Source: Catajapyx aquilonaris
Taxonomy: Eukaryota
Reading direction: 5' to 3'
Length of the DNA stretch: 64,000 nt
NCBI GenBank assembly: GCA_000934665.2
Contig: KZ538627.1
Span: 1 to 64,000, forward strand
The position numbers and the translations under genes are program-made. Each line of letters starts with the position of its first letter. The first letter of the stretch is position 1. A model generated the notes under the pieces. The model saw only the letters and a program-made list of their open reading frames with translations, was not told where the DNA came from and made no database searches. Below, piece by piece: positions 7,821-53,570 of this stretch.

Positions 7821-8173
7821 AGGGAGGTGGAGTGGTGCTGGGTAACATATGCGCCCATCATGGATGTTAAGGTCCCGGGTTCGAACCCAACCCGGGGTTC
7901 CCGCCTTCATCTCGTGCAGAGTTGGGCCATCTCTGGCTGCGTCTAGGGTGGAAATTTTCACTAGATTAATCCACCCGGGGGAATTCACAAAATGACCAAT
8001 AAATGACACTGCACTTGCACATTGCACATCCCCACCTACCTACCCTTGGAACAACTAAATACATCAATTCGCAATAATTACTATGTATGGTTCCAGAAAC
8101 AAATGGTGGTATTCCACCCCCTAAGAGGGCCTACCGCCCTAGCACGGGGTACAAAAAAACCACAAACACACAC
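7821..8173 (+). mobile_element. tRNA-derived SINE with (CA)n tail
   Basis: A-box-like TGGTGCTGGGT and B box GGTTCGAACCC; flanked by an 18-bp TSD ACACAGTCATYGATCTTT (7803-7820 and 8174-8191, one mismatch). Confidence 0.85.
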
Positions 8174-10059: not shown

Positions 10060-11095
10060 ACCTGCTCGTTTGTAGCTGGAACTAACGAGTAGCTGTTAGG
10101 TATTCGATATACCAGCTGCTGGATTTGTAGCTGGTCATAACTAGCTGTAATTCTACATTAAATAATTATAGCATAGATGATAATAAGTAGTAGCCATTGA
10201 CTCTTCGATATAGCAGCTGCTGATTTGTAGCCGTTGCCAACTAGATGTTATTCGACATTCGATATAGCAGAGCTGCTACTTAACTAGCAGGTACTCGATA
10301 TTCTATATAGTATAGCTGCTCGAATAGCTGCTCCTACCTAGTAGCTGTTAATTATTTGATAAAACAGACTCTGCTGGCTTATTTGCTGCTACTAACTAGC
10401 AGTTATTCGATATGCCATAGCTGCTATTAGCTAGTAGCTGTTAATTAGGCGATAAAACAGCTGCTGGGCTTTTTGCTGCTATTCGCTAGCAGTTATTCGC
10501 TATTCAATATGCCATAGCTGCTACTATCTAGTAGCTGTTAATTATGCGATAAAACAGCTGCTGGGCTTTTTGCTGCTACAAGCTAGCAGTTATTCGCTAT
10601 TCAATATGCCATAGCTGCTACTATCTAGTAGCTGATAGGTATTCCATATAACCACTGCTGGCTTTGTAGCTGCTACTGACTAGCAAATATTCTTTTTGCG
10701 ATATATAATATCTGGTGATTTGAAACTGCTACTAATTGTAGATATTCTACATTTGATATAGCATAGATGCTATAAATTTGTAGCCATTAACTATTCGATC
10801 AAACAGCTGCTGGTTTTGTAGCTGCTACTAATTAGCAGCTATTCGATATAGCCTACTAACTGGCTGACATATAGCTATTTGATATAACAGCTGCTGGTTT
10901 TGTAGCTGCTTCTAACTAGCAGTTATTTGATTTGCTATATTTATTTGATATAGCATACATGCTACTAATTGCCACGGGCTATTCGATATGGCATCTGCTG
11001 ATTTGGAGCTGCTACTATCTACAGTAGTATTAGATATGCGAATTCGCATATCTGCTGATTTGGAGCTGCTACTAATTGGCAGCTAATTATAGCAT
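10060..11095 (+). repeat. TAGCTGCT/ATTCGATAT degenerate minisatellite
   Basis: Recurrent GTAGCTGCTACTAA..GCAG(C/T)TATTCGATAT; contains a perfect 22-bp palindrome at 11032-11053. Confidence 0.85.
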
Positions 11096-11879: not shown

Positions 11880-12700
11880 CTTCTGGAGTTCCATGTTCGA
11901 CATCTATTCAATATCTTGGCTCGATATCTATATTTGAGGCCATGACTTATCTTGATTCGATATACAGGGCGATGTATATAAGGGCGATGTTAAAAAGCGA
12001 TGTTTTATTCGAAAACTGGAAAAGTTACATAGGTGTCTTTTACCAGGTCTTGAAGCTCTGTCGATGTAAATATGTGAAGCATACATGATGAAAAATCACG
12101 ATATACTGTATACCGGTATAATAATATTGAGATCTGAAATCGATAAAATATATTCAATATTTTGGCTCGATATGTTCATTAGCATCTCTTCAATATCGAG
12201 ATTCAATATCTGGATTGATGTTCGTTTGGTGTCTCGTTTCAATATCTCTTTTGGATACCCGTATTACTTTAAATGGATATCTCAATCCGAGTCGATATCT
12301 ACGTGATATCTGGATATTTTCATTGCGCGTCTTCTCGACATCGTGCCTCTATTATTATTTCATTTCAATATCCATTCGAAATATTTTCGATGTCCTGTTG
12401 GTATCTCGTTTCGATCCCTCATTAGATACATTGGTACCATTCTCGATCAGCTATTTATGATCGACATCTTCAGTCGATATCTCGTTGAGATATCCACATT
12501 GATCGATTTGATCGCTATCTCGTTTAGATATCCACATTAATCGGTTTGATCGCTATCTCGTTTAGATATCCACATTAATCGATTTGATCGATATCTCGTT
12601 TAGATATCCACATTAATCGATTTGATCGATATCTCGTTTAGATATCCACATTGATCGATATATCAATTCAACATCATGGGTATCGGTTTCTAAGCGGAAT
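11880..12700 (+). repeat. CGATAT-rich block with a 38-bp VNTR (about 12476-12662)
   Basis: GATATCCACATTAATCGATTTGATCGATATCTCGTTTA, about 4.5 copies. Confidence 0.85.
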
Positions 12701-14010: not shown

Positions 14011-14961
14011 TTATGCTCTGTATATAACGGGTAAAGGCTTCTAAACTCAGGTAATAGCAGCAGGGCCATATCTTTCCGGGCCCGAATAGAAAGAAACCTT
14101 CCCCAACGAAAAGAAAAGCCAAGAAGCCAAGCTGGCCGTTAGCATATGACATGAGTCGGCATAATCCGGGGGACCGGCCGACTAATGTGGAAACTTTCGA
14201 CTTGGGAGTTGCCGTCGGGAGATTACGCATGGAGTATGCATGAGGCCATTCCGGAGAAAGCAACGCGCTGTCTCCCGCCCCCGCCCCGCCCCCGCCCCCC
14301 ACCCCCGCCCGTACTTCCTTGCTTTATGGCAACGGCGCATTATATAACCTGGATTATCTCTACTTTCCATCCCGGAGACCTGTCCCTAAGGGCGACCTAA
14401 CAACACACACCGGATCTAAGGAGGTGGGAAGGTTGCTCCACTCCCCCGGATTTCTATCTGGGGGCATCTCCCCACCGGAGATTCCGGACTGGGGAAGAAA
14501 GGGGGGTAAATGAAGATCCCTAATATATCCGTCTTCATCCGGGGAGGCTTTTCCTTGCGTCTCTGACGGAAAAGGAGAGCAGATTCTGATTTATATTCCC
14601 CGCCCACCCACCCATCCCGGTTTATGGCTCTGGCACCTTGGCAGGGACAAGAGCCTCTGCTTCGCCTGATCACCCTGGATGCTCACTTCCCTTTTCCGGG
14701 GGAGGCCATCCGGATTTGTTGGCTGTTCAGACCCACAGAATTAGTAGAGAGTACGGAATTCAACGTGGCTCATTGGTGGCCATGACACTTTAGGCGCTTA
14801 GGGTTTGGTTTGGTTTTATTAGGTAGTAGCCAAAGCAACTATGGCTACCTGGCATATTGACATGATATGGCCCCCATCGGCCGACAGTAGACTTTTGGTT
14901 GGTACTGTTATGCGTTATAGGGACTCTCCTACGGATTATTACACCCCAAACAGTGACATGA

Positions 14962-15275
14962 TGCGCAAAGAATCCCTCATATCCAGGTGCGCGGAGAATC
15001 CCTAATATACAGGTACGCGGAGAATCCCTAATAATATTTAGGTGCACGGAGAATCCCTAATAATATTCAGGTGCACGGAGAATCCCTAATAATATCCAGG
15101 TGCGCGGAGAATCCCTAATATCCAGGTACGCGGAGAATCCCTAATAATATCCAGGTGCACGGAGAACCCCTAATAATATTCAGGTGCGCGGAGAATCCTT
15201 AATATCCAGGTACGCGGAGAACCCCTAATAATATTCAGGAGCGCGAAGAATCCCTCATATCCAGGTGCGCGGAGA
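14962..15275 (+). repeat. 26/29-bp GC-richer minisatellite followed by a CCTAA-like tract
   Basis: TATCCAGGTGCGCGGAGAATCCCTAA(TAA), about 11 copies; inverted copy at 14916-14935; AACCTAACCTAAC-like sequence near 15345-15360. Confidence 0.9.
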
Positions 15276-16119
15276 AACTAAAATTCGGCAAGCTATTATC
15301 CTAGCTAACCTTATCTCGCCTAGATTAGGCCTACATAACCTGATCTGACCTAACCTAACGACTTAAACTCATATTAAAATTGCGATTTTTTGATGGATGA
15401 ATTGGCAGCCCTGGACATGCGAAGACCTTATTATTTTCAGCCTTATGACTTTCCTCTTTAACAATCTGTTAGTTATTGCTATTTTCTGTGTCCGCATGTA
15501 AACTTATGCCTTCCGGACACGTTTGCGACGTTGCCAGTGCGGCTCATTGAAACGCTTTCCGTGTCTGAGCCTGGCCTTTTTGTTGTTGTCAGTAAAAGAA
15601 TGGGAGGGAGGGTAGATGGGGAAGGGAAGGGGTATTCCGGATGGAGCAACTTGGAGCCGACATAAGTGGCGTCAGATGGTGTGTCCATCTGGCGTTACGT
15701 GCCCTTAGCGCCGGAGAGAGTGTGGATGCCTGCCATATCTGAGAGCCCCACGCTGGGCGCCAAAAAAAAAGTATCACTTTGGCCTTACACACACAAAAAA
15801 AAAGGAGAGTCCCGGTGGCATCGTTCAAGTTTCAAGTTTTGCACGCGCCAAATGGAATTGCGAGGCCATCCCAAGCCGCATCCTAAGATTATGAGCAGGT
15901 TTTGCCAAGTCTTTTAATCGACGCTGGGGACGCCTGGCGGAGACCGTTACAGCCACTCATCCTGGGCCACGTGGCCCACTCGCTAAACGTATTTGCATGT
16001 CTGGAATCGCACCAGTGCCAGACGAAATTGCAGCAAGTGTGCTGTTTGTCCGCGACTAATTCACACTTGCAAGCTGTCATTGAAGGAATGTGTGCGACAT
16101 GCCCAGAATTATGATTGAA

Positions 16120-16790
16120 TTAATATTTAATTAATGCAACTGACCTAATTGACTCAAAATAAGTGGAGAGAATGCTAATTAAATGTGCAGATATATAACT
16201 TGTTCCCTCATTAATATTATGAATTTCATTATTAAAATGAAATAAATTAAATGAATATAAATGGGTGAATAATGAAATAAATGTATTAATAAAATTAGCA
16301 CATGAAACATGTTATTGTAATTAATTATATATATAATTAAATTGTATACATAAATAATTACAGAATCAAGTATATATATAACAAATAATAAAGCAATGTA
16401 ACCTAATATATAAAATACAAATACAAATAATAACATAGTAGAATAATGTGAATAATAATGTAGTATAAATGTGAATAATAATGCAGTATAAATGTGAATA
16501 ATAATGTAGTATAAATGTGAATAATAATATATAATATAAATGATAATAATAATGTACAATATAAATGCGAATAATAATGTAATATGCATACGAATAATAA
16601 TACTGTATAATATAAATACGAATGTAAGAAACCAAAATATTTAATATAATTAATTGTATAATATAATAATTATGAATAATACTAATAATTATGAATAATA
16701 CTAATAAAACAAATAAAACAATATGAATAAAATTAATAAAATTATGGAAATAAATAAATAAAAGTATCAGAAAATGAAAATGATGAAAAT
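16120..16790 (+). repeat. Extremely AT-rich AATAAT block with a 25-bp subrepeat
   Basis: AATGTGAATAATAATGTAGTATA-type units at about 16445-16620. Confidence 0.8.
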
Positions 16791-17623
16791 AAATGAGATT
16801 AATGTCTCTCTAATGTATGAAATTACAACTGGGATTCTCCTGCACATTTTCGTTTCCATTCTGGCCCTAGTTGCCATATCTTTTTTAACACCCGTGTTTA
16901 ATAGCAGCAACAGCTTGCAACAATGTCTGCCTCCCCAAGAGCGCTCCTTTCCTTCGCACTCTGTTAACCACGCTGACAAACTGACCCTCTTAGCTACTAA
17001 ATTAGCCTCTCGCCCGACTTAAGTGACCCGGGTTGTAAAGCTCTTAAGATGGTCTCATAACATGTCCGGCTCTTTCTCTCCTTCTCTCCCTCCCTCTCCT
17101 CCAACCATCACCCTCTAAAACCGTCCCTTGCGACGAGCCCCGGAGTCTCCGGGTTGACCACTAAACGTGATGGGTTGCTGGCACGGAAGCTGCACAATAT
17201 GGACGCGTCACGATAGGAATTTACGACAACGTGGGCCGTGGGGGGGTAGTCCTCGCCCAGGAAGAGGAGACGCCTAATTTTGCGAGGAGGGGGTATGGCG
17301 GGGACCTTCTTGTGGGAGTTGAGGGAGGGGAAGGGAGGGGAAGGGGAAATTATTATCACTTGTGGGACTAGGGCTCGTAAATTTCCTGTCTCGGCTCTTA
17401 ATTGCCGGTGGCTGGTAAAAAGGGTTCTCAAAAAATGGAATCACTTACAAATAATTAGTACGAAGGGGATTCACCTGTATCCTGGCCTACCAATGATTCT
17501 TAAGATTTCAGGTGATTTCCGGATCATTTCAAAAATATATGAAGATCAGACACCAAGTGCCACACCGCGGACAACCGTCACATACCAAGCTAATTCTTAT
17601 TTATTTATTTATTTATTTATATT

Positions 17624-18460
17624 TTAAAACTTATTTAATTTTGTTATTTCATGAATAGTTATTAAATTGAAAATGTTATTGGGTGTATTTGTTGCGAATT
17701 TCTCAACGTGGTTTCCCTGGGATTTCTTGTATACTCTTGCGGACTGTCCAGGGGATTCCCTGCTTTCCGGACCCGGATTTTTCGTGTCCGCTCCAAAATG
17801 CATGGTCATGAAAAAACTGGATCAGATGGGGATTGAGCACGGATTGGACTACCCTGGGACGCACCTTGACCGTGGTGGACGTGACCCGGAGCTCCAAACA
17901 GTCCATCGCGTCTATAAAGGCCACGATTCGCTCCTAGATGGCCCCCCAATTTTTATAGAATCCAGCATTAGACCTAAACCCCCGTGGAATTTTGTCCACG
18001 TACAACCCGGATTGACACATTCGTCCGGAATGGGTTGTCCACCCCCGGGGCCAAACACGCCGTTTTTGCCCCTGGACTCCGCCCCCAGCTTTATTATTTA
18101 GGACTATTTTTCCACCGGATCGTGTCGACAGATAGGCTTTCCCTCCCAGTGGTGATGAAGAGTCTCATAAAAGAGCGAAGGAACGCCGGACCTTATTGCC
18201 CTCTCTCTTCCAAGAGGACAGTCTTTCAGCCTTGTCCGGTCCACTTGTCCGGGTCCACCCCTCCCACACGTCTTCTATTCTCTTTTGTGAAGAGAATAAG
18301 CGGTTTGGTTGAAGAAGTAGCTCTCAGCGGGTCGATTCTGTCTCAAGAGGACACAAAAAAGGTCCAATTCCTGCCAGCCCGGATGAGGTCCGGATTGGTC
18401 CGGGTCTGGACCGCCATTAACCCTCCAGTTTGCCTCAATCGGCATCATGATGTCAATACG
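17624..18460 (-). mobile_element. Highly decayed Tc1-like DDE transposase relic
   Basis: Manual minus-strand translation across stops and frameshifts gives Tc1-like motifs in the right order: LRATSSTKPL..KENRRR..KWTGQG*KTVL; IVLNNKAGGG (cf. TVKHGGG); GAPGH...AQSP (cf. DNAPxH...WPxQSPDL); C-terminal EKFATNTPN (cf. KLIxSMP). Confidence 0.55.
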
Positions 18461-18488
18461 ATACCCGAATTTGGTCGTAGCCTCGCCC

Positions 18489-18565
18489 TTCCGGCTAGCT
18501 CAGTCAGTAGAGCATGAGACTCTTAATCTCAGGGTCGTTTGGGTCGAGCACCACGTTGGGCGCCA
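18489..18565 (+). pseudogene. tRNA-Lys(CTT)-derived copy 1 of tandem array, with encoded CCA
   Basis: CCGGCTAGCTCAGTCAGTAGAGCATGAGACTCTTAATCTCAGGGTCG...CCACGTTGGGCG-CCA is near-identical to metazoan tRNA-Lys-CTT. The anticodon arm is intact; the 5' acceptor bases and T-arm/B-box are mutated. Confidence 0.9.
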
Positions 18566-18577
18566 GTTGTAACCTCC

Positions 18578-18648
18578 TCCCGGCTAGTCGGTTGAGCAGG
18601 AGACGCTTAATCGTAGGGTCATGGGTTCGAGCCCCACGCTGGACCCCA
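18578..18648 (+). pseudogene. tRNA-Lys(CTT)-derived copy 2, degenerate, with encoded CCA
   Basis: CCCGGCTAGTCGGTTGAGCAGGAGACGCTTAATCGTAGGGTCATGGGTTCGAGCCCCACGCTGGACC-CCA; D-arm deletion, intact B box. Confidence 0.85.
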
Positions 18649-18663
18649 GTTGTAGCCTCGTTC

Positions 18664-18737
18664 GCCCGGCTTGCCCATTCGGAAGAGCATGAGACTCAAT
18701 CTCAGTGTCGTGGGTTCGAACCCCACGCTGGGCGCTA
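18664..18737 (+). pseudogene. tRNA-Lys(CTT)-derived copy 3, degenerate (anticodon loop deletion, CTA in place of CCA)
   Basis: GCCCGGCTTGCCCATTCGGAAGAGCATGAGACTCAATCTCAGTGTCGTGGGTTCGAACCCCACGCTGGGCG-CTA. Confidence 0.85.
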
Positions 18738-18875
18738 GTTGTAGCCTCGCGAATGACGCTACAATGGCGCCCAGGGTGGTGCTGGCTCATCCGGCTAAAC
18801 AGTCCAGCTAAACAGCGAGGCTACGTGACACTAGGCCTGGCTAACACACTACCCTAGCCATGTTTGCCACATAAT

Positions 18876-18982
18876 CCAGCAGATGTCGCTAGATACGCAG
18901 ACCATCCGGTAGATGCCGCCACCGTCTTGCTGGAGTCCAGCAGATGGCGCGACCGTCTCCAAACGAGCTAACAGATGTCACC
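18876..18982 (+). promoter_or_regulatory. Four CTCF-like motifs at 30-31 bp spacing
   Basis: CCAGCAGATGTCGCT (18876), CCGGTAGATGCCGCC (18906), CCAGCAGATGGCGCG (18937), CTAACAGATGTCACC (18968), against the consensus CCASYAGRKGGCRS. Confidence 0.5.
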
Positions 18983-19762
18983 AGCGGCACCCAGTGGCAA
19001 CGAGGCCATTCCTGACCACATACACTCAACCAAATGAGTGTGTCGCTTTCCAACCGATTTGGGGAAGTGGCAGAGCAGCGATTACAAGCCCGTTTATTCC
19101 GGAACAGCTAGACAAAAAAGCGTCGCTGGAAAAAAAAAATCTCGTGGACTTTCAGCATGATGAGTTTCCTGTCGCCTAAAACCCCCTCCCCGTTTGCATC
19201 GAAGAGGAAATTGTCCATATTCGCACGCGATTCGGAACGTAATTATCGCCTCACTCCGATGCGAAAATGAAGGCTGGGGCTATTGTCCAAAAAAGCAGTT
19301 ATATCTCGTGCGGCTGACGGGATTTTGCAACCGTGGCTGTGGAGATTCGCAATAGTTTTTATATCGCCATTAAAACCATAACTATGACTATGCAGCACTA
19401 CAGGGGGGAGAGGCGCATATTGGGCAGTAGCGCGTGTATTTCGCGGGGGGCGAGTATTAGCCATGCGAACCAGACGAGGCTGGGTACATAATGCGAGCAT
19501 GTCAGTAACTGCTGCATTGTGTTTAAATTACTGGGCACAATGCGGCCGTTTACTGACGCGGTCGCGTTTGGGCACGTCTATCACGGCGACGCATTAACCA
19601 GAGGGTGATTAAGTGAGGGTTAAGGCGTGTTCACATATCCGCAATTTTGGAGCCTTGACATCGACTAAATCGCTCCACACTTTCAAATCACAGAATTGGC
19701 TGGAGGCTGTGCCTGTTTGTCCGGGATTAGTCATCATGTGGAATTGTAGATGGATCTACCCA

Positions 19763-19833
19763 TCTTAATATCAGCGTCGTAAGTTCGAGCCCCACGTTGG
19801 GTGCCAGTTGTAGCCTCGTTCGCCCGGATAAGC
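19763..19833 (+). pseudogene. Detached fragment of the tRNA-Lys/linker array (3' half + CCA + linker + next 5' end)
   Basis: TCTTAATATCAGCGTCGTAAGTTCGAGCCCCACGTTGGGTG-CCA-GTTGTAGCCTCGTTC-GCCCGG; same junction as 18646-18669. Confidence 0.85.
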
Positions 19834-21186
19834 AGACCCTGCATGTTGCGCCATCTCTATGGTAGATATGGTACTACGTAGACACTCTGGGGTCCCGGTA
19901 ATGTTGCCAGTCAATTTGGTACTAACAGCGACCGATTTTAGGGCTGAAGGAGGAAAATCGCTCCCTGATACACCTAAATCTCTTCAGTAATCAGATGTGT
20001 CCCGCCATATTTAATCCAAATCAAGGTTCCTGCCATTTTCGCTCCGAAACATGCCACCATGTTTGGCCCAGATATTTTTAATTTGGCTCTTTGGAACCAA
20101 GTATCTGTAGAAAACATGGTACAAATGGCGTAGACTATCTCATACTACTACTAAAGCGATTTGGTGCTAGAAGTGAGCGATTTCCGGAGCTTGAAGAGGA
20201 AAATCGCTCCCACCATGTTTGGTCCAGACACTGCGTTCCGCCATGTTTGGTCCAAATCAACGCTGCATACATTTTAGCTCCAGAGCATGCAGCCATGTTT
20301 GGTCCAGATGTTTCTATTTCGGGTGTAGCCGTCACGTCAGCTTCCTGACACTTTTTTCCCGAGGCTGAATCAGATAGACGTGAGTGGGTGGTCGGTGGGA
20401 GGCACAAAACGCGACTGTCGTTTATATTTCATGTTGACGGCGCCCTGTTGAATCACGTCTTCTTTCTTTTTTTGTGTGTGTGTCGTTTTCTTTTCTTTTC
20501 CGTCCTATCCCAGGGCAGGCAGAAAACTTCGACAGCCGCAAAATGCCAACGCCTGTCACGATTTGCTTTGACGACTCTTTTCTCTCTCTCGGCCTTAGTT
20601 TTCCTGTGTTTGGGAGGCTTGCCTGCCTGGAAAAAGCTTTTTCCTTTCCAGGCGGCCAAGCGGAAACAGAAGGCAAAATGCTCCCCCTCCTCTCCCCACT
20701 ACCTCTTCCCCAGTCCCATCCCTTCCCCCTCCCATAGTTTTGTTCCAGACACCAAGCTCTATTCCTACCCATCCCAAGCAGATTCTTACTTCGCAAAGTG
20801 CCCCTGACAACCAGCCCACTTTGGTAACGGCTATGTACTTGCTTCTATCTGAAAAAAACGTAGCTGCTAAGTAGCAGGTGGTTAAAAATTAGGTCCTAAT
20901 ATTAGCTTAAATAGTAGCTTCTATTTTAATATCGCGGTTTATTCTAGCTATGATACAGCTAATATTTTTAACACTCGGTCATTTAGCAGCAGCAGCAAAT
21001 TCGTAGCTGTAAGACGACTTTGCAAGTATTGGTATTTATTTTATATATTAACATATTTTTAATCACTTACGTAGTTTTCATTTTTCTGTTATTTTACCTG
21101 TTTATTGTTCATAATATTTATTTATTTACTTTATTGCCTATTGCATTCATTTTTTCCTGTATTTTTTGTTTATATTGTACGGTATA

Positions 21187-21398
21187 CAGGGTGTCTCAAC
21201 TTTTTTGTCCGAACCGTTATCGGAAATATGGCGCTATAAGCTGCTATTTGTAAGCAGTGACTTGCAACCGGTTTGTCCGAGGAATGGGAAATATTCCCTG
21301 CTAATCATAGGTTGAAGTGGCATACATTGCTTGCAAAGTATAGCAGCTTAGTGCAATATTTCCGATAACTGTTCGGACAAAAAAGTTGAAACACCCTG
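21187..21398. mobile_element. Tc1/mariner-type MITE, full-length imperfect hairpin
   Basis: TA|CAGGGTGTCTCAACTTTTTTGTCCGAACCGTTATCGGAAATAT ... ATATTTCCGATAACTGTTCGGACAAAAAAGTTGAAACACCCTG|TA. Confidence 0.85.
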
Positions 21399-22489
21399 TA
21401 CATTTTGATGGATTTATTTTTTTATGTATTTGTTTTCATTTAATTTATGTCATTGTGTTTGTAATTTTTTCTTTGCATTTATACAGTATATTGAATTAAA
21501 TAAATTAGACTACCGGTAATTAAAAGCTAATTAAATAAATAAACAGTTTTATTTTATTTGTTTTTAATTACCGGCAGTCGAATTAAGTTATTTATCTTGT
21601 GTTATGGATTTAACTTTATTCATATTACTTGCTTAATTTATTTTTTCTAATGGAAATGCTTGTGTATAGTGCAGTTTAGTTTTACTCCATCACTATCGAC
21701 TCCAACCCTGCAATCAATCACGTATGAGTGATGTCCCACATATTTATCTTTTTTTTTTTTAAAAAAAAAAGTGGTGCTTGATAGACTGTCTATCCGACTA
21801 GATACTATCTGACACCAGCGATGTGAAGCTTAATGGGGGACTACTCTGGCACTACTTACTAGCATCGATTATGAATAAACCCTAAAATGGAACTGGAGCA
21901 AGTGTATGGAGGTCGGGACTAATTATCTTGACATTATTGGGCAGGGGATAAGGTGAAGGTTGATATCTCGCTTTAAGATCGGTGGACCTTCACCCGTTTT
22001 TTTCTCTTTTCGGGAAGACGTGGAAGGGAAAGGGGGTATGTAGGGAGGAATTCCTGAGGGAGCGTTCCTGGGGTACGGCCCATTGACTTTTCTCGCTTGA
22101 GTCTACTCCAGCAGCTCTCTCACAAGCTGACTTACGATCATAGGAAAACCATTAACTTTGTTTTCTCCGCTCATCTCACGCTGGGAAGCTCAGGGCACAC
22201 ATCCAACAGTGGAGGGGGGGGAAAAAATGTAGTAGTAGTAGGAGGAGAGCCCCCCAAGTCAACAATGTAACCTCCCTTAAACATGACATTGCTACAGTGC
22301 CTTTAAGGGCTTACCTGCCACGGCTGGATGGCATTTTAAGCCCAAATTGAAGTAGGTTCTTACTTATTTCCAATACTACCTTGTGGTATTTCCATCCCTA
22401 CTTGTTGCTACAAAATATGGCGGCGGATGTGACCAATCACGAATCTGGATGGCGAAGTATGATGAGTATGATTATAGATAACTTCGATT

Positions 22490-23871: not shown

Positions 23872-24203
23872 GTCTTGACTAAGGTCTGGGGACGGAAGTC
23901 TGTGGTTTTACTGTAGCTGTGGGGACCAGTTCCAATTGTGGGGACATTTGTCGGTCCCCACAGTCTCACACACGCGAAGTGTACCATTACAGTGGGGACA
24001 TGTGTAAATAAGTGGGGACATGTCCCCACTATTTTCATTTGTAGGGTTTCACAAAAGTCCATTTTTCTCAGCCTAGGTTACTTAGGGTAGGTTAGGTTAG
24101 GTAGGTTAGGTTAGGTTAGGTTAGGTTAGGTTAGGTTAGGTGAGATCAGTTTACACTCGCAGTGAAAAGTGATCAATGTCCGTCCCCACGCCTTAGTCAA
24201 GAC
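23872..24203. mobile_element. Inverted-repeat-bounded element with an internal (TTAGG)n tract and GTGGGGAC/GTCCCCAC repeats
   Basis: GTCTTGACTAAGGTCTGGGGACGGA matches the reverse complement of TCCGTCCCCACGCCTTAGTCAAGAC at 23/25; TTAGG run about 24075-24141; followed by (GT)n. Confidence 0.75.
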
Positions 24204-24239: not shown

Positions 24240-24750
24240 GCGCTTATGCTATTTAGCTGTTATGCCATGCAGCGATTATTTTGACATAATATTAGCTTTT
24301 GTGGGATTCGACTACTAGGCTATATTGCGATTTCGCTGCTATGTCATTATTGTGGTTAGCTGCTATGAGATTCAGTTATGCGATTTAACTAATACGATAT
24401 TATCTAACTTGCAACTCTCAGCCACGATTGTGCTATTTAGCTGCTATTATTTTATGTCAATTAGCTCATTAGCTGTTATTTTCTATTTCGTTATTCTGCC
24501 ATTTTATTCTACTTCGTTATTCTGCTATTCAGCTATTATTTTTATTTCGTTATTATGCCATTGGGCTATTATTTATCTATATCGTTATTCTGCTATTCTG
24601 CTATTATTTTCTATCTCGTTATTCTGCTATTCTGCTATTATCTTTCTATTTCGTTACTCTGCTATTCTGCTATTATCTTTCTATTTCGTTACTCTGCTAT
24701 TCAGCTATTATTTTTCTATTTCGTTATTCTGCTAATTTGCTATTTTTACG
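24240..24750 (+). repeat. TTCTGCTATT degenerate minisatellite
   Basis: TTTCTATTTCGTTA(T/C)TCTGCTATTCTGCTATTA units of about 38 bp. Confidence 0.8.
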
Positions 24751-25654: not shown

Positions 25655-26290
25655 CTAACGACTATTTTAACTGCAGCGATGTTGCTAAGAAGCATTGATT
25701 TTCACAACGAGCATTTTAACTAACGGTGATCTTCACTAGGACCTTTTTAACTAACAGTGATTTTCACTAACAATCGTCTTACCTAACAGTGACGTTCACT
25801 AACAATCGTTTCAACTAACAGTGACGTTCACTAACAATCGTTTCAACTAACAGTGACGTTCACTAACAATCGTTTCAACTAACAGTGACGTTCACTAACA
25901 ATCGTTTCAACTAACAGTGACGTTCACTAACAATCGTTTCAACTAACAGTGATTTTCACTAGGACCGTCTTAATTAACAGTGACTTTCACAAACGTTTTC
26001 ACTAATAGTGAAGTTAACTCAACAATCATTTTTAACTAACGGTGATTTCACCTAGCAGCGAATTTCACTAACGATCATTTTTAACTATAATTGTGATTTT
26101 ACTAATAGCAGAGTGTGAATTTTGCTTCACTGATTTCCATATTGCTATTCTACTTAGCGGTGATTTTAAATATCATTGATTTTATTTAGTAGTGATTTTA
26201 AATATCATTAGTTTTATCTAGTAGTGATTTTGCTTAACTGTGATATTAACAGCCTGTGGCTTTTACTAACAGTGATCCTAACTAACAGGG
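25655..26290 (+). repeat. 16-bp-period block with a 32-bp core (about 25750-25965)
   Basis: AACTAACAGTGACGTTCACTAACAATCGTTTC, about 6 copies. Confidence 0.9.
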
Positions 26291-28469
26291 ATTATTGTTT
26301 ATGAGCAATAATAGCTGCTACTCAAAATTAGCCGTTTTGCCAAATCCCATAACTCAATCAGTACCAGGCTGAACCTACACGTTGGCATAGCAAGTTTCAT
26401 ATCCTGCTGCCATTTTTGCGCAGATGGCCTACGAGGTTGTATGAGACTTTATAATTAGAGTTTCCGCCATCCCCTACACCCTGTTATAAGCATTCGCTTC
26501 CACCAGGGGGAGGAGGGGGTATGCTTCCGGGAAGCGTTTAACAAAAAAAAAGGGGGTGTTGAGTGAGAAACAAACGAGTCGTAATGCCCCTAGTAACCCC
26601 GCTCGTATATTTGACTCCCGAGCAATCAAAGCCAGGGTAGGGTTTTAAAGAAGCGAGAAAATGTCCTAATTAGTGAGTGAGTATGTGTCGCGGTCAGGTT
26701 GAGATGGAAAATTGGAGGGCCGTTTATCGCAGCGGGTGCAAGATGGCCGCACCCTGTACATGCCTTGCTCATATCACAATAATTGCAGAACCCTAATGGG
26801 TACGGACTGGAACGGGATGGCGCGTGGCACTTTGCTAACTGCTATTGCAGACAAGTTGTTGCCTGATTGGATCATCGTACTGGCCAACCGGGACTACTTA
26901 CAATATTAGATAGTTTAGGAGTATTCATTGGTCACCCAAAGTGCAGTGACTGGCGTTGTGTCCTATACACTTGCAGCTGTAACATTAATTTTAGTCTTAA
27001 GAATCGGACAATCTCTACTTAAACGAGTTACAGATTGGTGGTGGACATGCCAGCCAATCAGAGAGAGTCGTGCATGTGCCATGTAAAATTATGGTTGATG
27101 GTTGACCTATTAGAGAGCTCCTTGCATGCAAAAGGATGTCTGATTAGAAATGGACAGGTCAACCAATCAGAGAACGTCTTTCGTGTAAAACAAGATTAGC
27201 CAATCACACGAGCGGGATTCGAGTAGACTTTTTCTCATTTGGCAGCGACAAATTAGGCTGGCACACCCGATACTATACGATTATAATAGAACAATGGCAT
27301 TGATTGTTGTCATTCTCATTTCCCGTTGCCTAGGCACCCAATTTTTAAACAGTAATCTGCCTGTAAATTGACCTTGGCGGATAGAGGGAACCTGCTGGGA
27401 AACAGGAAGTGCTGGGTCACCGGAAGTTGGCCATAAACCATATTTTGATCACGCTGAATCCGAATTCGAAAACTGTTTGTTGCTATCTGTTGCGGTTTAA
27501 GCCCTGATACATGTCCACTGACAGACGGACAAGCAGTTTTAGAGACTTTTTATGAGAAAAAATCTAAAAATATGTCTGATTTTGTGTCGCTAAACCAATC
27601 AGGTTTTGAACTGTTCAATGGTCATGATTGTTTCTTCTCAACTGAATGTTGCTGCTTTTGAAAATGTTTGCTGGCACGAACAAACCGGAAGCTTCCGGCA
27701 GTACCACACGTCGCTCTTTCGCGTCCGAAACTTCCCCATATTTTTTATAATCTGTCGCTCCCATCTTGTCAGTCACTCCTGGTAAAAAGTCCTTGAATTC
27801 GCAAAAATGCTACAAAAAAGCGACAGATCGTAATCGCTATCCTGTCGCGTCAAACTGTGACGATAAGCCACTTAATGCATGACATTCGCCCTTTGCTTCC
27901 CCCCCCCCCTTCCCCCAAAAAAGTTTGCGACATGTAATTGACAGCTTTTCCACATTGACTCCTCTCTAAGCCATACCATGACACCCACAAAAAAATATTT
28001 TGCGAAAAAAATTTCAACACATCGTGGGACAGCATAAAGTAGCGCTTTTATGGCTTCTGAGAGCCTATTGTGGACACCCTAAAAGCTTTCATGTGTTTCA
28101 CCACCTTTGACTGTCATACCGAGCATGTCCGGTCTGGATAGTACCCACTGGTTTTTCCCCCCAACTTTTTTTTTAGCGAATCAGAGCACACATCGCAAAA
28201 CACAGGTGAGCCAATAATTTTCAGAGACCGACAATATTGGCCACTTGTTTCAAAATTTACAGTCCGGAGTTAGAACCGGATGGAATAAGTTCCGTTCCAT
28301 AGAGTTTTTTCCGGCGAAAAACTGTAATTGCAAAGCTGTGCAAAACAACAACCATTATTTGGAGCTCGCCATTTGAAACGACGATACTTTAACTTCTGGA
28401 CTCAATTTGACGTGGGTACAAAAATCGTGCGTCACTGTCCTTTGCGCCAGGAATGTGGGGAAATGGGTA

Positions 28470-28699: not shown

Positions 28700-29400
28700 A
28701 ATTTGAGAGTTTGGCCCATCAGAACAGGTTTTATTAGATGAAATGATAGGACGACCAATGAGTGAGGAGCTTACGAGAACCTGGCCACTCAATGAGCAAC
28801 TTGTAAGATCCTGGCCAGTCAGTGAGCTATTCATAAGATCCTGGCCAGTCAGTGAGCTATTCATAAGAACTTGGCCTATCAGTGAGCAGTTTACAAGAGT
28901 CTGACCAATCACTGAGCAGCTTACAAGAATCGGCCCAATCAGCGAACAGCTTGTAATATCCTGGCCAGTCAGTGAGCTATTCATAAGAACTTGGTCTATC
29001 CGTGAGCAGTTTACAAGAATCGGGCCAATCAGCAAACAGCTTACAAAAACCTCGCCATTCAGTGAGCACTTTACAAGATGGCCAACCAATAAGCAGTTTT
29101 CAGAAACCTGGCCACTCAGAGAGCAGATAACAAAAACCTGGCCATTCAGTGAGCAGTTCACAAGAAGATCATGTGTAATGCCTTCTCTGATTGGCATTCT
29201 AGCCAGGCAAATCAGACACCGGCTAACATGATTGTTGATTGGCTTATCATAAGGTGGCTCACAAGTGGGCTTGTTCTGTCCAATCAAAGAGAGGCTTACA
29301 AGTCTGTGAGGGTGTTCTGACCAGTTGAGGAGGGGCTTACATGTTGAGTTTGACTGACCAGTTAGAAAGAGGCTTACAAGCGGAGTTTACAAAGGGAGTG
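28700..29400 (+). repeat. 30-bp minisatellite built on a CCAAT-box-like core
   Basis: Consensus about TTACAAGAACCTGGCCAATCAGTGAGCAG(C/T); roughly 15 clear units. Confidence 0.85.
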
Positions 29401-52547: not shown

Positions 52548-52892
52548 TGGCGTCCCACAACCCTCCTAGACTAACACCACTCCTTATGAAGCACCGTCGC
52601 CGTCACTCTCCTGTCGAATGACTGGCACTCTGGAAATCAGTCAAGCTTCACCTGAAGATCTTTGCAGAGACCTTCTTTTCCCCCCATCTTCTTTCCGCCT
52701 CAGGGAAAGAAGTCTGTTGTAGAAAATTGAACTGCTGCGCGTTTGTGCCCCGATGCCTCCCCCCNNCCCCCCCCCCCCCTCCTCGCACTTTATTGTAACT
52801 TCCAGGCCCTTATATATCATATATAAGTCCGGAGTAATATCCTTATAAGGCTGTGTTCAAATAGAGGAACTACTTTTTCGTTTTGCCGGCAG

Positions 52893-53078
52893 GTGGGGTG
52901 GGTCAAGGCTGACACCAAGGCCATCCAGGCCATACATCACCACGTCATCACGCACAACCCGAGGGTGTCGGTGTCACACAGTGACCACAGCATCTGGAAC
53001 CTCCATATCAAGGGGGTCAAGGAGGAGGACAGGGGGCTCTACATGTGCCAGATCAACACTGATCCTATGATCAGCCAG
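52893..53078 (+). CDS. DIP-alpha: Internal exon, remainder of Ig1 (Dpr-binding CC'C''FG face)
   Basis: Acceptor ttttgccggcag|GTG, donor CAG|gtgagt, 186 nt, phase 0/0. Translates VGWVKADTKAIQAIHHHVITHNPRVSVSHSDHSIWNLHIKGVKEEDRGLYMCQINTDPMISQ, with the Ig Trp, DxGxYxC and the DIP signature CQINTDPM. KADTKAIQAIH is DIP-alpha-like. Confidence 0.95.
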
Positions 53079-53189
53079 GTGAGTCCAGATCATACCCAAA
53101 TCACGATAACTTTAGCTCTGAATCAACTATCCCTGGCCACTCTTAGCTTGATTAGAATTTATTTTTCAACAATAGACGATTATGTATAT

Positions 53190-53570
53190 ACTAGTTGCTA
53201 TATTTCATATTGGCTATTTATTTCAGTAGTAGTTATATATTGGGATTTATATTAGTTATTTATTGATTTATTTTATTTTATTCGTTATTTATGGCTTTTA
53301 TTTTATTTATTGGTTATTTATTTTATTAGCTGTTTATTTATTAGTTGATTATTTTTATTGGTTATTTCACATTAGTTATTTATTTATTAGTTATTTATTT
53401 TTATTGGTTATTTCACATTAGTTATTTCTTTGTATTAGTGGCTATATTTATATTACAGTATATTTCGTATTAGGTGTTGTTTTATAATTATTAGTTTTAT
53501 TTATATTAGTAGTTATTTCATATTAGCTATTAGTTGGAATTAGTTGCTATACTTTTATTAGTTGTGTTCT
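53190..53570 (+). repeat. TTAGTTATTT T-rich block
   Basis: ATTAGTTATTT / ATTGGTTATTT repeats. Confidence 0.75.

What the first reader, a model, noticed from the sequence alone, without database searches (positions are those of the whole stretch)
18474..18749. Tandem array of whole tRNA-Lys(CTT) copies with encoded CCA and a constant linker resembling an LTR-end/PBS junction
Seen: three head-to-tail tRNA-Lys-CTT copies, each followed by CCA (CTA in copy 3) and GTTGTA(G/A)CCTC(GTTC). A fourth linker precedes copy 1, and the period is about 86 bp. Known: eukaryotic nuclear tRNA genes normally lack CCA, so templated CCA points to reverse transcription of mature tRNA. TGGCGCCCAACGTGGGGC is the classic Lys1,2 primer-binding site, normally found 1-3 nt after an LTR ending in CA. 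The minus strand of the consensus unit reads ...CGAGGCTACA-AC-TGGCGCCCAACGTGGGGC..., which is that geometry, except that the whole tRNA is present rather than 18 nt. Inference: the unit may be a primer tRNA fused to about 15 nt of strong-stop cDNA and then concatemerised. Alternatively it is a mobile element carrying its own Pol III/primer cassette. I do not recognise this as a named repeat family.
Basis: partly seen in the sequence, partly recalled or inferred. Interest (0 to 1): 0.75.

Follow-up and report, generated by a model that had tools for sequence, protein, structure and literature searches.

The report
Decayed primer-tRNA/LTR-end repeat array
Three worn-out copies of a lysine tRNA, each still carrying its added CCA tail and joined to what looks like the last few bases of a retrotransposon end, lie head to tail in an arthropod genome; they are most likely a dead by-product of retrotransposon copying, not working genes.

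Summary
Window 18474-18749 contains three head-to-tail tRNA-Lys(CTT)-like units of full tRNA extent. Two are followed by CCA and one by CTA, and they are separated by a 12-15-nt linker with periods of 92, 83 and 89 bp. All are decayed: they are 77-80% alike, ARAGORN calls none, and only unit 3 passes Rfam.

I add three features.
- A fourth unit plus linker plus the first 6 nt of a fifth lies at 19719-19827.
- Directly after the array, in inverted orientation (18750-18782), sit the same linker and exactly the 18-nt tRNA-Lys primer-binding part. This is an LTR-end/spacer/PBS junction.
- A tRNA-Lys 3' end with CCA and an A-run lies at 15743-15770.

No retroelement protein, LTR pair, poly(A)/LINE tail or target-site duplication was found. 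The genome was not available, so copy number is unknown.

Best reading (0.45): a fossil of LTR-retroelement reverse transcription, namely primer tRNA joined to the first bases of minus-strand cDNA, captured and amplified locally. Rivals are a Helenus-like miniature LTR element, a tRNA-derived SINE or minisatellite, and a foldback repeat.

Interest is moderate.

The parts
18474..18488 (+). Linker copy L0 in front of unit 1. It is 15 nt long, and 21 of 26 positions match the L2-plus-tRNA-start stretch. No tRNA copy precedes it.
18489..18565 (+). Unit 1: tRNA-Lys(CTT)-like pseudogene ending in CCA. The D-arm and anticodon arm are near-intact, and the T-arm is disrupted by indels.
   Evidence: (partial Rfam tRNA match, 23.4 bits, model positions 10-42)
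18566..18577 (+). Linker L1. It has 2 mismatches to the 12-nt core, and about 3 nt are lost at the junction with unit 2.
18578..18648 (+). Unit 2: tRNA-Lys-like pseudogene ending in CCA. The D-arm is partly deleted and the T-arm is intact.
18649..18663 (+). Linker L2, full 15 nt (GTTGTAGCCTCGTTC). Its reverse complement has the form of an LTR end (...ACA) plus a 2-nt spacer.
18664..18737 (+). Unit 3: the best-preserved tRNA-like copy. The anticodon loop is shortened and the unit ends in CTA instead of CCA.
   Evidence: Rfam RF00005, 41.1 bits, model 1-71 = 18664-18734
18738..18749 (+). Linker L3: exact 12-nt core, cut short where the inverted copy begins.
18750..18764 (-). Inverted copy of the linker. 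On the + strand it reads as an LTR-type end (...GCTACA) plus one spacer base. It pairs with L3 and unit 3's 3' end in a hairpin.
   Evidence: (DNA fold z = -4.5, 0 of 200 shuffles as stable)
18765..18782 (+). 18-nt primer-binding-site-type complement of the tRNA-Lys 3' end. It has 3 mismatches to the motif quoted in the finding. Similarity to the tRNA stops here.
   Evidence: beyond it, scores of 11-16 against shuffle means of 12.2-12.7 with sd 2.1-2.3
18783..19705 (.). Non-coding spacer between the two unit clusters. There is no Pfam match and no repeat elsewhere in the window. It would be the internal region if this were a miniature LTR element.
19706..19718 (+). Probable degenerate linker in front of unit 4 (weak).
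   Evidence: score 16 against 10.5 +/- 1.9; 12 of 500 shuffles reach it
19719..19806 (+). Unit 4: tRNA-Lys-like copy with an insertion of about 12 nt in its 5' half. The 3' half is 83-84% identical to units 1-3, and the unit ends in CCA.
19807..19827 (+). Full 15-nt linker L5 followed by the first 6 nt of a further tRNA copy. These 21 nt are identical to 18649-18669. Similarity then ends.
15743..15770 (+). Separate fragment: the last 20 nt of the same tRNA including CCA, followed by eight more A. It may be a retroposed 3' tRNA fragment, or a PBS on the minus strand.

Best explanation
The repeat unit is a DNA copy of the junction that forms when an LTR retroelement starts reverse transcription. 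It consists of the whole mature primer tRNA-Lys(CTT), including the post-transcriptionally added CCA, joined to the first about 15 nt of minus-strand cDNA. That cDNA is the complement of the 2-nt spacer and of the last 13 nt of the LTR. Such a tRNA-cDNA chimera, or a plus-strand copy that read through the whole primer instead of stopping after 18 nt, was fixed in the chromosome. It was then multiplied locally into a short array.

The inverted linker plus 18-nt PBS that abuts the array is the matching LTR-end/PBS side. It may come from the same intermediate folding back and copying itself, or from a truncated element.

Today the locus is a non-coding, decayed relic with no sign of function.

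**Shown:** the unit anatomy, the boundaries, the inverted PBS junction, the decay, and the lack of coding capacity.

**Inferred:** that the linker is an LTR end, that reverse transcriptase made the tRNA copy, and how the unit was captured and concatenated.
For: 1. The tRNA part starts at position 1 directly after the linker. It ends with the discriminator base plus CCA in units 1, 2 and 4, and CTA in unit 3. These are the ends of a mature tRNA molecule, not of a gene with flanks.
2. The linker has no T-run terminator, and the copies are broken as tRNAs. ARAGORN, and Rfam passes 1 of 4 units.
3. The same 15 nt occurs inverted at 18750-18764, followed after one base by an 18-nt complement of the tRNA 3' end. 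Beyond those 18 nt, similarity to the tRNA falls to chance: scores are 11-16 against shuffle means of 12.2-12.7, while the units score 15-57 among themselves. This gives the linker the natural context of an LTR end next to a PBS.
4. Of 18 metagenome loci holding the tRNA end, CCA and the first 6 linker bases, 15 carry just 18-19 nt of the tRNA and then chance-level identity (5-11 of 38; 5 of 24 at L015, which is cut by the contig end). Window units 3 and 4 keep 24 and 20 of 38. In the wild this string is therefore the complement of an ordinary ...ACA/AC/PBS-Lys junction.
5. The inverted arms fold as a DNA hairpin with z = -4.5. This fits a snap-back product.
6. Published background, passages read:
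   - m1A58 of the primer tRNA normally stops plus-strand synthesis after 18 nt, and synthesis runs on into the tRNA when the modification is missing (PMC8599865).
   - Retrotransposon cDNA replication intermediates are captured at chromosome breaks in yeast (PMC11372161).
7. An unchecked note on another piece of this genome reports a hairpin LTR end beside a reverse-transcribed tRNA-Lys copy (e1-7596638).
Against: - No LTR whose end matches the linker was found. None is in the window, and none of the 18 metagenome loci has similar bases after the shared 6.
- The window holds no reverse transcriptase, integrase or gag. Pfam gave no such match in the 126 open frames scanned (55 and 71).
- Only 13 nt of the supposed LTR are present, and nothing explains why the cDNA part is so short.
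- Head-to-tail joining of sense tRNA copies does not follow from any standard step of reverse transcription. My template-switch idea is untested.
- L0 precedes unit 1 without a tRNA in front of it.
- A full-length copy of a modified tRNA needs read-through of known stop sites.
- The copies differ by about 20%, so fine detail is blurred: the exact PBS boundary could be 18-21 nt, and the palindrome centre is uncertain.
- There is one locus only, and the genome-wide picture is unknown.
Confidence: 0.45

Rival explanations
1. A decayed copy of a miniature non-autonomous LTR retrotransposon of the Helenus/TRIMp3 kind. Its terminal repeats are built from tRNA-Lys-like Pol III promoter units. The proposed layout is: 5' repeat 18474-18763, one spacer base, PBS-Lys 18765-18782, internal region of about 0.9 kb, and a 3' repeat remnant at 19706-19827.
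For: - tRNA-like units in the same orientation lie on both sides of a non-coding region of about 0.9 kb.
- An 18-nt Lys PBS sits one base after a ...ACA end, exactly where a 5' LTR would stop.
- The left block starts and ends with mutually inverted TGTAGC-type termini.
- Helenus elements carry tRNA-like sequences in their LTRs. Animal ones use tRNA-Lys among other primers, and they are 311-1263 bp long (PMC10886601: abstract, Results part 1 and Discussion read).
Against: - Outside the tRNA-plus-linker unit the two ends share nothing. The best local alignments of the flanks score 16, 19 and 39, the last against a shuffle mean of 31.2 with sd 5.5.
- The right-hand copy continues into another tRNA start rather than into the ...ACA end.
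- I saw no clear polypurine tract next to 19706 and no target-site duplication (by eye).
- The span of 1354 bp exceeds the published range.
- Only one copy is known.
Confidence: 0.2
2. A tRNA-Lys retropseudogene or tRNA-derived SINE head was multiplied at the DNA level by slippage or unequal crossing-over into a three-copy minisatellite. A nearby dispersed copy and a small inverted duplication arose the same way. The likeness of the linker to an LTR end would be coincidence.
For: - tRNA-Lys-derived SINEs are common: three salmon families are named in PMC9223172 (passage read).
- Tandem repeats derived from SINE parts are described in reptiles (PMC10702118; only the search listing and the start of the abstract were seen).
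- This genome is rich in tRNA-derived repeats according to unchecked notes. The window is full of minisatellites and holds another tRNA-type B-box repeat at 7877.
- Short templated inverted duplications can arise at breaks by foldback (bioRxiv 10.1101/2024.03.07.583931; listing and start of the abstract only).
Against: - The repeat period coincides exactly with tRNA position 1 to CCA plus 15 nt. Random DNA breakpoints would not favour this.
- There is no body, LINE-type tail, poly(A) or target-site duplication at the array.
- The inverted piece carries just the PBS-length part of the tRNA.
- No other copy lies in the remaining 60 kb of the window.
Confidence: 0.17
3. Part of a foldback-type repeat whose inverted arms are built from tRNA-derived units. 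A family of that kind was noted elsewhere in this genome.
For: - Unit 3 and an inverted partial unit sit tail to tail and form a stable hairpin.
Against: - The inverted arm is only about 33 nt long, against a 276-nt array.
- The unit 1 kb downstream is in direct, not inverted, orientation.
- A sequence look-up among earlier findings found no look-alike stretches.
Confidence: 0.08
4. A cluster of genuine tRNA-Lys genes whose 3' flank happens to begin with CCA.
For: Unit 3 passes the Rfam tRNA threshold.
Against: - ARAGORN of 4 units.
- Unit 3 has a shortened anticodon loop, and units 1, 2 and 4 have broken arms or insertions.
- The 15-nt spacers have no T-run terminator.
- The units are only 77-80% alike.
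Confidence: 0.02

Closest known systems
Strong-stop-DNA model for the origin of tRNA-Lys-derived SINEs (Ohshima, Koishi, Matsuo and Okada 1993, PNAS 90:6260; PMC46908)
   Same: A tRNA-Lys-related part that keeps the CCA end is followed by sequence attributed to the U5 end of a retroelement. In other words, a primer tRNA is still joined to minus-strand cDNA.
   Different: The content of that paper is recalled, not read. The paper is not held, and I saw only its title in two reference lists. Those SINEs are interspersed, have a body and a tail, and are not tandem. Here the cDNA part is only 15 nt, the units are head to tail, and an inverted LTR-end/PBS copy lies beside them.
Helenus / TRIMp3 miniature LTR retrotransposons with tRNA-like sequence in the LTR (Kojima 2024, PMC10886601)
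   Same: Both are non-coding, have tRNA-like Pol III-type boxes inside terminal repeats, and have a PBS (tRNA-Lys in some animal families) after the 5' repeat. The overall size is about 1 kb.
   Different: In Helenus the tRNA-like part is attributed to a SINE inserted into an LTR, and no tandem full-length tRNA-plus-CCA units are described in the sections I read. Here no LTR pair, PPT or target-site duplication could be shown. The arthropod Helenus families named in those sections are all from wasps; none from a crustacean-like genome is named.
Ordinary 5' LTR/PBS-Lys junction of LTR retroelements
   Same: The stretch 18750-18782 (CGAATGACGCTACAATGGCGCCCAGGGTGGTGC) has an ...ACA end, a 1-nt spacer and an 18-nt complement of the tRNA-Lys 3' end. 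This matches 15 of 18 metagenome loci.
   Different: Only 14-15 nt of the would-be LTR exist. What lies upstream is the sense tRNA array in opposite orientation, and no coding region follows.
Read-through of the primer tRNA during plus-strand strong-stop synthesis when m1A58 is missing (Fukuda et al. 2021, PMC8599865)
   Same: This explains how more than 18 nt of a primer tRNA can be copied into DNA next to an LTR end.
   Different: The effect was shown in vitro and in HIV-1-infected mutant human cells, and was described as a dead end for integration (passages read). It has not been shown in arthropods or for germline fixation.
SINE-derived satellites (PMC10702118)
   Same: Tandem repeats whose unit derives from a tRNA-related mobile element.
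   Different: I saw only the listing and the start of the abstract. Here there are just three copies, and the unit is a whole tRNA with CCA rather than a portion of a SINE.

Membership tests
Functional nuclear tRNA-Lys(CTT) gene | Cloverleaf recognised by tRNA finders, with a 7-nt anticodon loop | tested here: not met
   ARAGORN of 4 units. Rfam passes only unit 3, which has a shortened anticodon loop.
Functional nuclear tRNA-Lys(CTT) gene | CCA not encoded, and a T-run terminator shortly downstream | tested here: not met
   CCA is encoded in 3 of 4 units and CTA in 1. The 12-15-nt linkers have no run of four T.
LTR retroelement 5' LTR/PBS junction | LTR end ...CA, then 0-3 nt of spacer, then about 18 nt complementary to a tRNA 3' end | tested here: met
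   The stretch 18750-18782 has this layout. The complement of each linker-tRNA junction has the same geometry. 15 of 18 metagenome loci show the same layout.
LTR retroelement 5' LTR/PBS junction | A full LTR, repeated at the other end of the element | tested here: not met
   No direct repeat exists beyond the tRNA-plus-linker unit.
Helenus / TRIMp3 (PMC10886601) | Two LTRs that contain a tRNA-like sequence | tested here: inconclusive
   tRNA-like units lie on both sides, but no shared LTR sequence surrounds them.
Helenus / TRIMp3 (PMC10886601) | PBS just after the 5' LTR | tested here: met
   18765-18782, one base after ...GCTACA.
Helenus / TRIMp3 (PMC10886601) | Polypurine tract before the 3' LTR, and 4-bp target-site duplication in animals | tested here: not met
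   By eye, there is no clear purine tract next to 19706 and there are no matching flanks. Decay could hide them.
tRNA-derived SINE (SINE2) | tRNA-derived head with A and B boxes | tested here: met
   A B-box-type T-arm is present in units 2, 3 and 4. The D-arm is kept in unit 1.
tRNA-derived SINE (SINE2) | Body plus a LINE-derived or A-rich tail, target-site duplication, and many interspersed copies | tested here: inconclusive
   There is no tail or duplication at the array, and no further copy in the other 60 kb. Genome-wide copy number is not testable because no genome is held.
Primer-tRNA / strong-stop-derived retro-sequence (Ohshima-Okada model, recalled) | tRNA-Lys part with CCA, directly followed by the complement of a retroelement U5 end | tested here: inconclusive
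   CCA and the geometry are met, and the linker recurs next to a true-length PBS. The parent LTR was not identified.

The most novel reading that the evidence does not exclude
The locus is a germline fossil of reverse-transcription intermediates. On this reading, a self-primed (snap-back) minus-strand strong-stop molecule still carrying its full primer tRNA was integrated. It represents a small family in this arthropod, together with the hairpin-LTR/tRNA-Lys locus noted elsewhere in the genome. In that family the module 'whole tRNA-Lys plus LTR terminus' propagates as a unit. It would supply a Pol III promoter on one strand and multiple primer-binding sites on the other. If so, it would give direct sequence evidence for the 30-year-old proposal that tRNA-Lys SINEs are born from primer-tRNA/strong-stop chimeras. 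It would also show a concatenating step, such as reverse transcriptase switching from the 5' end of the tRNA back to the LTR end, that has not been described.
Probability: 0.15. Interest if true: 0.65.

Novelty: new variant of a known kind. Interest (0 to 1): 0.4.

Why it matters
How tRNA-derived mobile elements are born is still argued mostly from consensus sequences. A locus that keeps the complete primer tRNA with its CCA, the first bases of cDNA and, next to it, the mirror-image LTR-end/PBS junction would be a rare snapshot of a failed reverse-transcription reaction fixed in a genome. It bears on the origin of tRNA-Lys SINEs and of tRNA-bearing miniature LTR elements.

In practice, such units are a source of false tRNA-gene calls: unit 3 passes Rfam. 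They could also act as decoy primer-binding sites if transcribed antisense.

As it stands this is one decayed, silent-looking locus, so its value is as a lead for a genome-wide repeat survey.

Tried and rejected
- **Own genome.** It is not held, so copy number, the parent LTR and true tRNA-Lys genes could not be examined.
- **Sequencing runs.** Only 4 DNA holders from one study were listed, and they are possibly the source of the window. One further run held next to no words, and no RNA holder was listed.
- **Metagenome scans.**
  - tRNA end plus the full 12-nt linker gave 0 loci.
  - The shorter pattern gave 18 loci. All are ordinary LTR/PBS junctions or chance, and none has the rest of the linker.
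- **Viral contig scan.** There was 1 hit, a chance match inside a phage contig with no tRNA beside it.
- **Earlier-findings look-ups.** Searches by sequence and by relatives found no look-alikes, and nothing was noted near this window.
- **Pfam.** The 55 open frames from 15300-21200 scanned (10 of the 65 found were left out) gave only two sub-threshold chance hits. The 71 longer frames from the rest of the window gave no retroelement domain.
- **Flank alignments between the two unit clusters.** They are not above shuffles.
- **A supposed internally deleted fifth unit at 19822-19853.** It is not significant, with scores of 12-13 against shuffle means of about 13.
- **Similarity of the right arm to the tRNA beyond the PBS.** It is not significant.
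- **Literature.**
  - Ten searches found no description of tandem whole-tRNA-plus-CCA units joined to an LTR end.
  - The four 12-mer searches found only unrelated papers that share a 12-mer; I saw their titles and the starts of their abstracts only.
  - Repbase and Dfam could not be searched.
  - The supplements of PMC10886601 list Helenus families and were not opened. They might hold a related family.
- **Genuine tRNA gene cluster.** Rejected, as set out under the rival explanations.
Full report
**What is there**

From 18474 the + strand runs as follows:

| Part | Coordinates |
|---|---|
| Linker L0 | 18474-18488 |
| Unit 1 | 18489-18565 |
| Linker L1 | 18566-18577 |
| Unit 2 | 18578-18648 |
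| Linker L2 | 18649-18663 |
| Unit 3 | 18664-18737 |
| Linker L3 | 18738-18749 |

Linker starts are 92, 83 and 89 bp apart. The units are related far beyond chance:
- Within-window blastn gives 79.6% identity over 103 nt (E 6e-18) and 76.6% over 167 nt (E 9e-28).
- The 18-nt motif from the finding matches 6 sites against 0.02 expected.
- A T-arm 16-mer matches 5 sites against 0.17 expected.

The units are of tRNA-Lys(CTT) type. The partial Rfam alignment of unit 1 places CUU in the anticodon position, and CTT is kept in the same context in units 2 and 4. The 3' 18 nt are the complement of the Lys primer-binding motif.

They are whole in extent but not intact:
- ARAGORN finds no tRNA anywhere in the window.
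- Rfam passes only unit 3, at 41.1 bits against a threshold of 29, with a shortened anticodon loop.
- Unit 1 gives a partial 23.4-bit match.
- Units 2 and 4 give nothing at E up to 10.

Tandem Repeats Finder did not report the array at a minimum score of 30, which fits its decay.

1. A fourth unit lies about 1 kb downstream at 19719-19806.
   - It has an insertion in its 5' half, and its 3' half is 83-84% identical to units 1-3.
   - It ends in CCA.
   - It is followed by a full linker and the first 6 nt of a further tRNA copy. These 21 nt (19807-19827) are identical to 18649-18669.
   - A weak, degenerate linker seems to precede it (12 of 500 shuffles reach the score).
2. Directly after L3 the linker recurs in inverted orientation at 18750-18764.
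   - After one base it is followed by an 18-nt complement of the tRNA 3' end at 18765-18782.
   - Beyond those 18 nt there is no detectable similarity to the rest of the tRNA. Local scores are 11-16 against shuffle means of 12.2-12.7, whereas the units score 15-57 against each other over the same part.
   - The two arms fold into a DNA hairpin with z = -4.5; 0 of 200 shuffles are as stable.
3. At 15743-15770 the last 20 nt of the same tRNA, including CCA, are followed by eight more A.

No other copy lies in the remaining window.

**Surroundings**

- The units sit in a GC-richer block: 52% in 18001-20000, against 36-39% in the neighbouring bins.
- Nothing coding was recognised. 55 open frames of 50 aa or more from 15300-21200 were scanned, out of 65 found; 10 that lay in the AT-rich repeat or on the array itself were left out. 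71 frames of 95 aa or more from the rest of the window were also scanned. None gave a retroelement domain.
- Outside the unit, the flanks of the two unit clusters are not similar.
- I saw no poly(A) or LINE-type tail, no T-run terminator and no target-site duplication at the array.
- The genome is arthropod-like according to earlier unchecked notes. That fits the TTAGG-type repeats at 24078-24146.

**Is the linker an LTR end?**

The complement of each linker-tRNA junction reads as ...ACA, two bases, then the Lys PBS. Two results support this reading.
- Inside the window, the inverted copy puts the same 15 nt next to a PBS of normal length. This is what a real LTR end looks like.
- A metagenome scan for the tRNA end, CCA and the first six linker bases returned 18 loci. 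In 15 of them the tRNA match is just 18-19 nt long and then drops to chance (5-11 of 38 identities; 5 of 24 at L015, which is cut by the contig end). Window units 3 and 4 keep 24 and 20 of 38.

In other genomes this string is therefore the complement of ordinary LTR/PBS-Lys junctions.

None of those loci shares the rest of the linker, and a scan requiring the full linker found nothing. The parent element is unidentified.

**Most likely mechanism (confidence 0.45)**

The unit has the ends of a mature tRNA molecule: position 1, and the discriminator base plus CCA. It is joined to the complement of a spacer and an LTR end. That is the structure of a primer tRNA carrying the first bases of minus-strand cDNA. 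Read on the other strand, it is a plus-strand copy that ran through the whole primer instead of stopping after 18 nt.

Two points of published background apply (passages read):
- The stop after 18 nt depends on m1A58, and synthesis continues into the tRNA when the modification is lacking (PMC8599865).
- Retrotransposon cDNA replication intermediates are captured at chromosome breaks in yeast (PMC11372161).

The asymmetry at the palindrome is a whole tRNA on one arm and only 18 nt on the other. A tRNA-primed short cDNA that folds back and copies itself up to the modified base would look like this. A truncated element abutting the array would look the same.

How the units became head to tail is not explained by any standard step. 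I suggest repeated template switching from the 5' end of the tRNA back to the LTR end, or later unequal crossing-over. Neither is tested. Divergence of about 20% between units says the event is old, or the copying was error-prone. Nothing suggests present function.

**Rivals**

- **Helenus-like miniature LTR element (0.2).** The layout fits loosely: tRNA-like units on both sides, a PBS right after an ...ACA end, and about 0.9 kb of non-coding interior (PMC10886601; abstract, Results part 1 and Discussion read). However, no LTR pair beyond the unit, no polypurine tract and no duplication could be shown. The right-hand copy also continues into another tRNA start rather than into the LTR-type end.
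- **tRNA-derived SINE head or retropseudogene multiplied at the DNA level (0.17).** This would be ordinary. It does not explain why the period equals the tRNA plus 15 nt exactly, or why the inverted piece has PBS length.
- **Foldback repeat built of tRNA-derived units (0.08).** A note on this genome hints at such a family, but the inverted arm here is only about 33 nt.
- **Real tRNA gene cluster (0.02).** Excluded by the decay, the encoded CCA and the missing terminators.

**Comparison with what is known**

The closest idea is the proposal that tRNA-Lys SINEs arose from primer tRNA plus strong-stop DNA (Ohshima et al. 1993). I recall its content, but the paper is not held, and I saw only its title in two reference lists.

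The closest described element type is Helenus/TRIMp3. Against both, this locus differs in three ways: tandem whole-tRNA-plus-CCA units, a cDNA part of only 15 nt, and the mirror-image LTR-end/PBS junction.

My ten literature searches found no description of such an arrangement. Repbase, Dfam and the supplement tables of the Helenus paper were not examined, so 'not catalogued' is unproven.

An earlier unchecked note on another piece of this genome (e1-7596638) reports a hairpin LTR end beside a reverse-transcribed tRNA-Lys copy. This suggests the theme recurs.

**Verdict**

- Novelty: a new variant of a known kind.
- Interest is moderate (0.4), because the evidence rests on one decayed locus and the decisive genome-wide search could not be run.

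Noticed in passing
window 15743-15770 (+): The last 20 nt of tRNA-Lys, including CCA, are followed by eight more A, and there is no LTR-type end on the other strand. This may be a retroposed 3' tRNA fragment or a stray PBS.
   Followed up: partly
window 24078-24146 and 15333-15359: Interstitial TTAGG-type (arthropod telomere-like) repeats, with a short complementary run 8.7 kb away.
   Followed up: no
window 7840-7900 (+): Another tRNA-type B-box stretch (GGTTCGAACCC context) unrelated to the Lys unit. It is probably a copy of a different tRNA-derived repeat.
   Followed up: no
window 28723-29165 (-): A 30-bp-period tandem repeat that keeps a 236-aa frame open. That frame gets a Pfam pentapeptide-repeat match (E 5e-6, 26.3 bits against a cut-off of 20.2). 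This is most likely a by-product of the DNA repeat.
   Followed up: no
window 52827-53252 (+): An open frame with weak immunoglobulin-domain matches (V-set E 1.3e-4, below the curated cut-off). It is possibly an exon of an Ig-domain gene.
   Followed up: no
window 21185-21400: A 52-nt inverted repeat, 92% complementary, with 112 nt between the arms. It is MITE-like.
   Followed up: no
window 10066-10995, 12474-12663, 14945-15288, 24458-24750, 25682-26307: Five separate minisatellite arrays with periods of about 97, 38, 29, 35 and 16/32 bp lie within 16 kb. The region is unusually rich in tandem repeats.
   Followed up: no
window 19914-20086 and 20159-20322: A direct repeat of about 170 bp at 69% identity lies just downstream of unit 4. 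Its nature is unknown.
   Followed up: no
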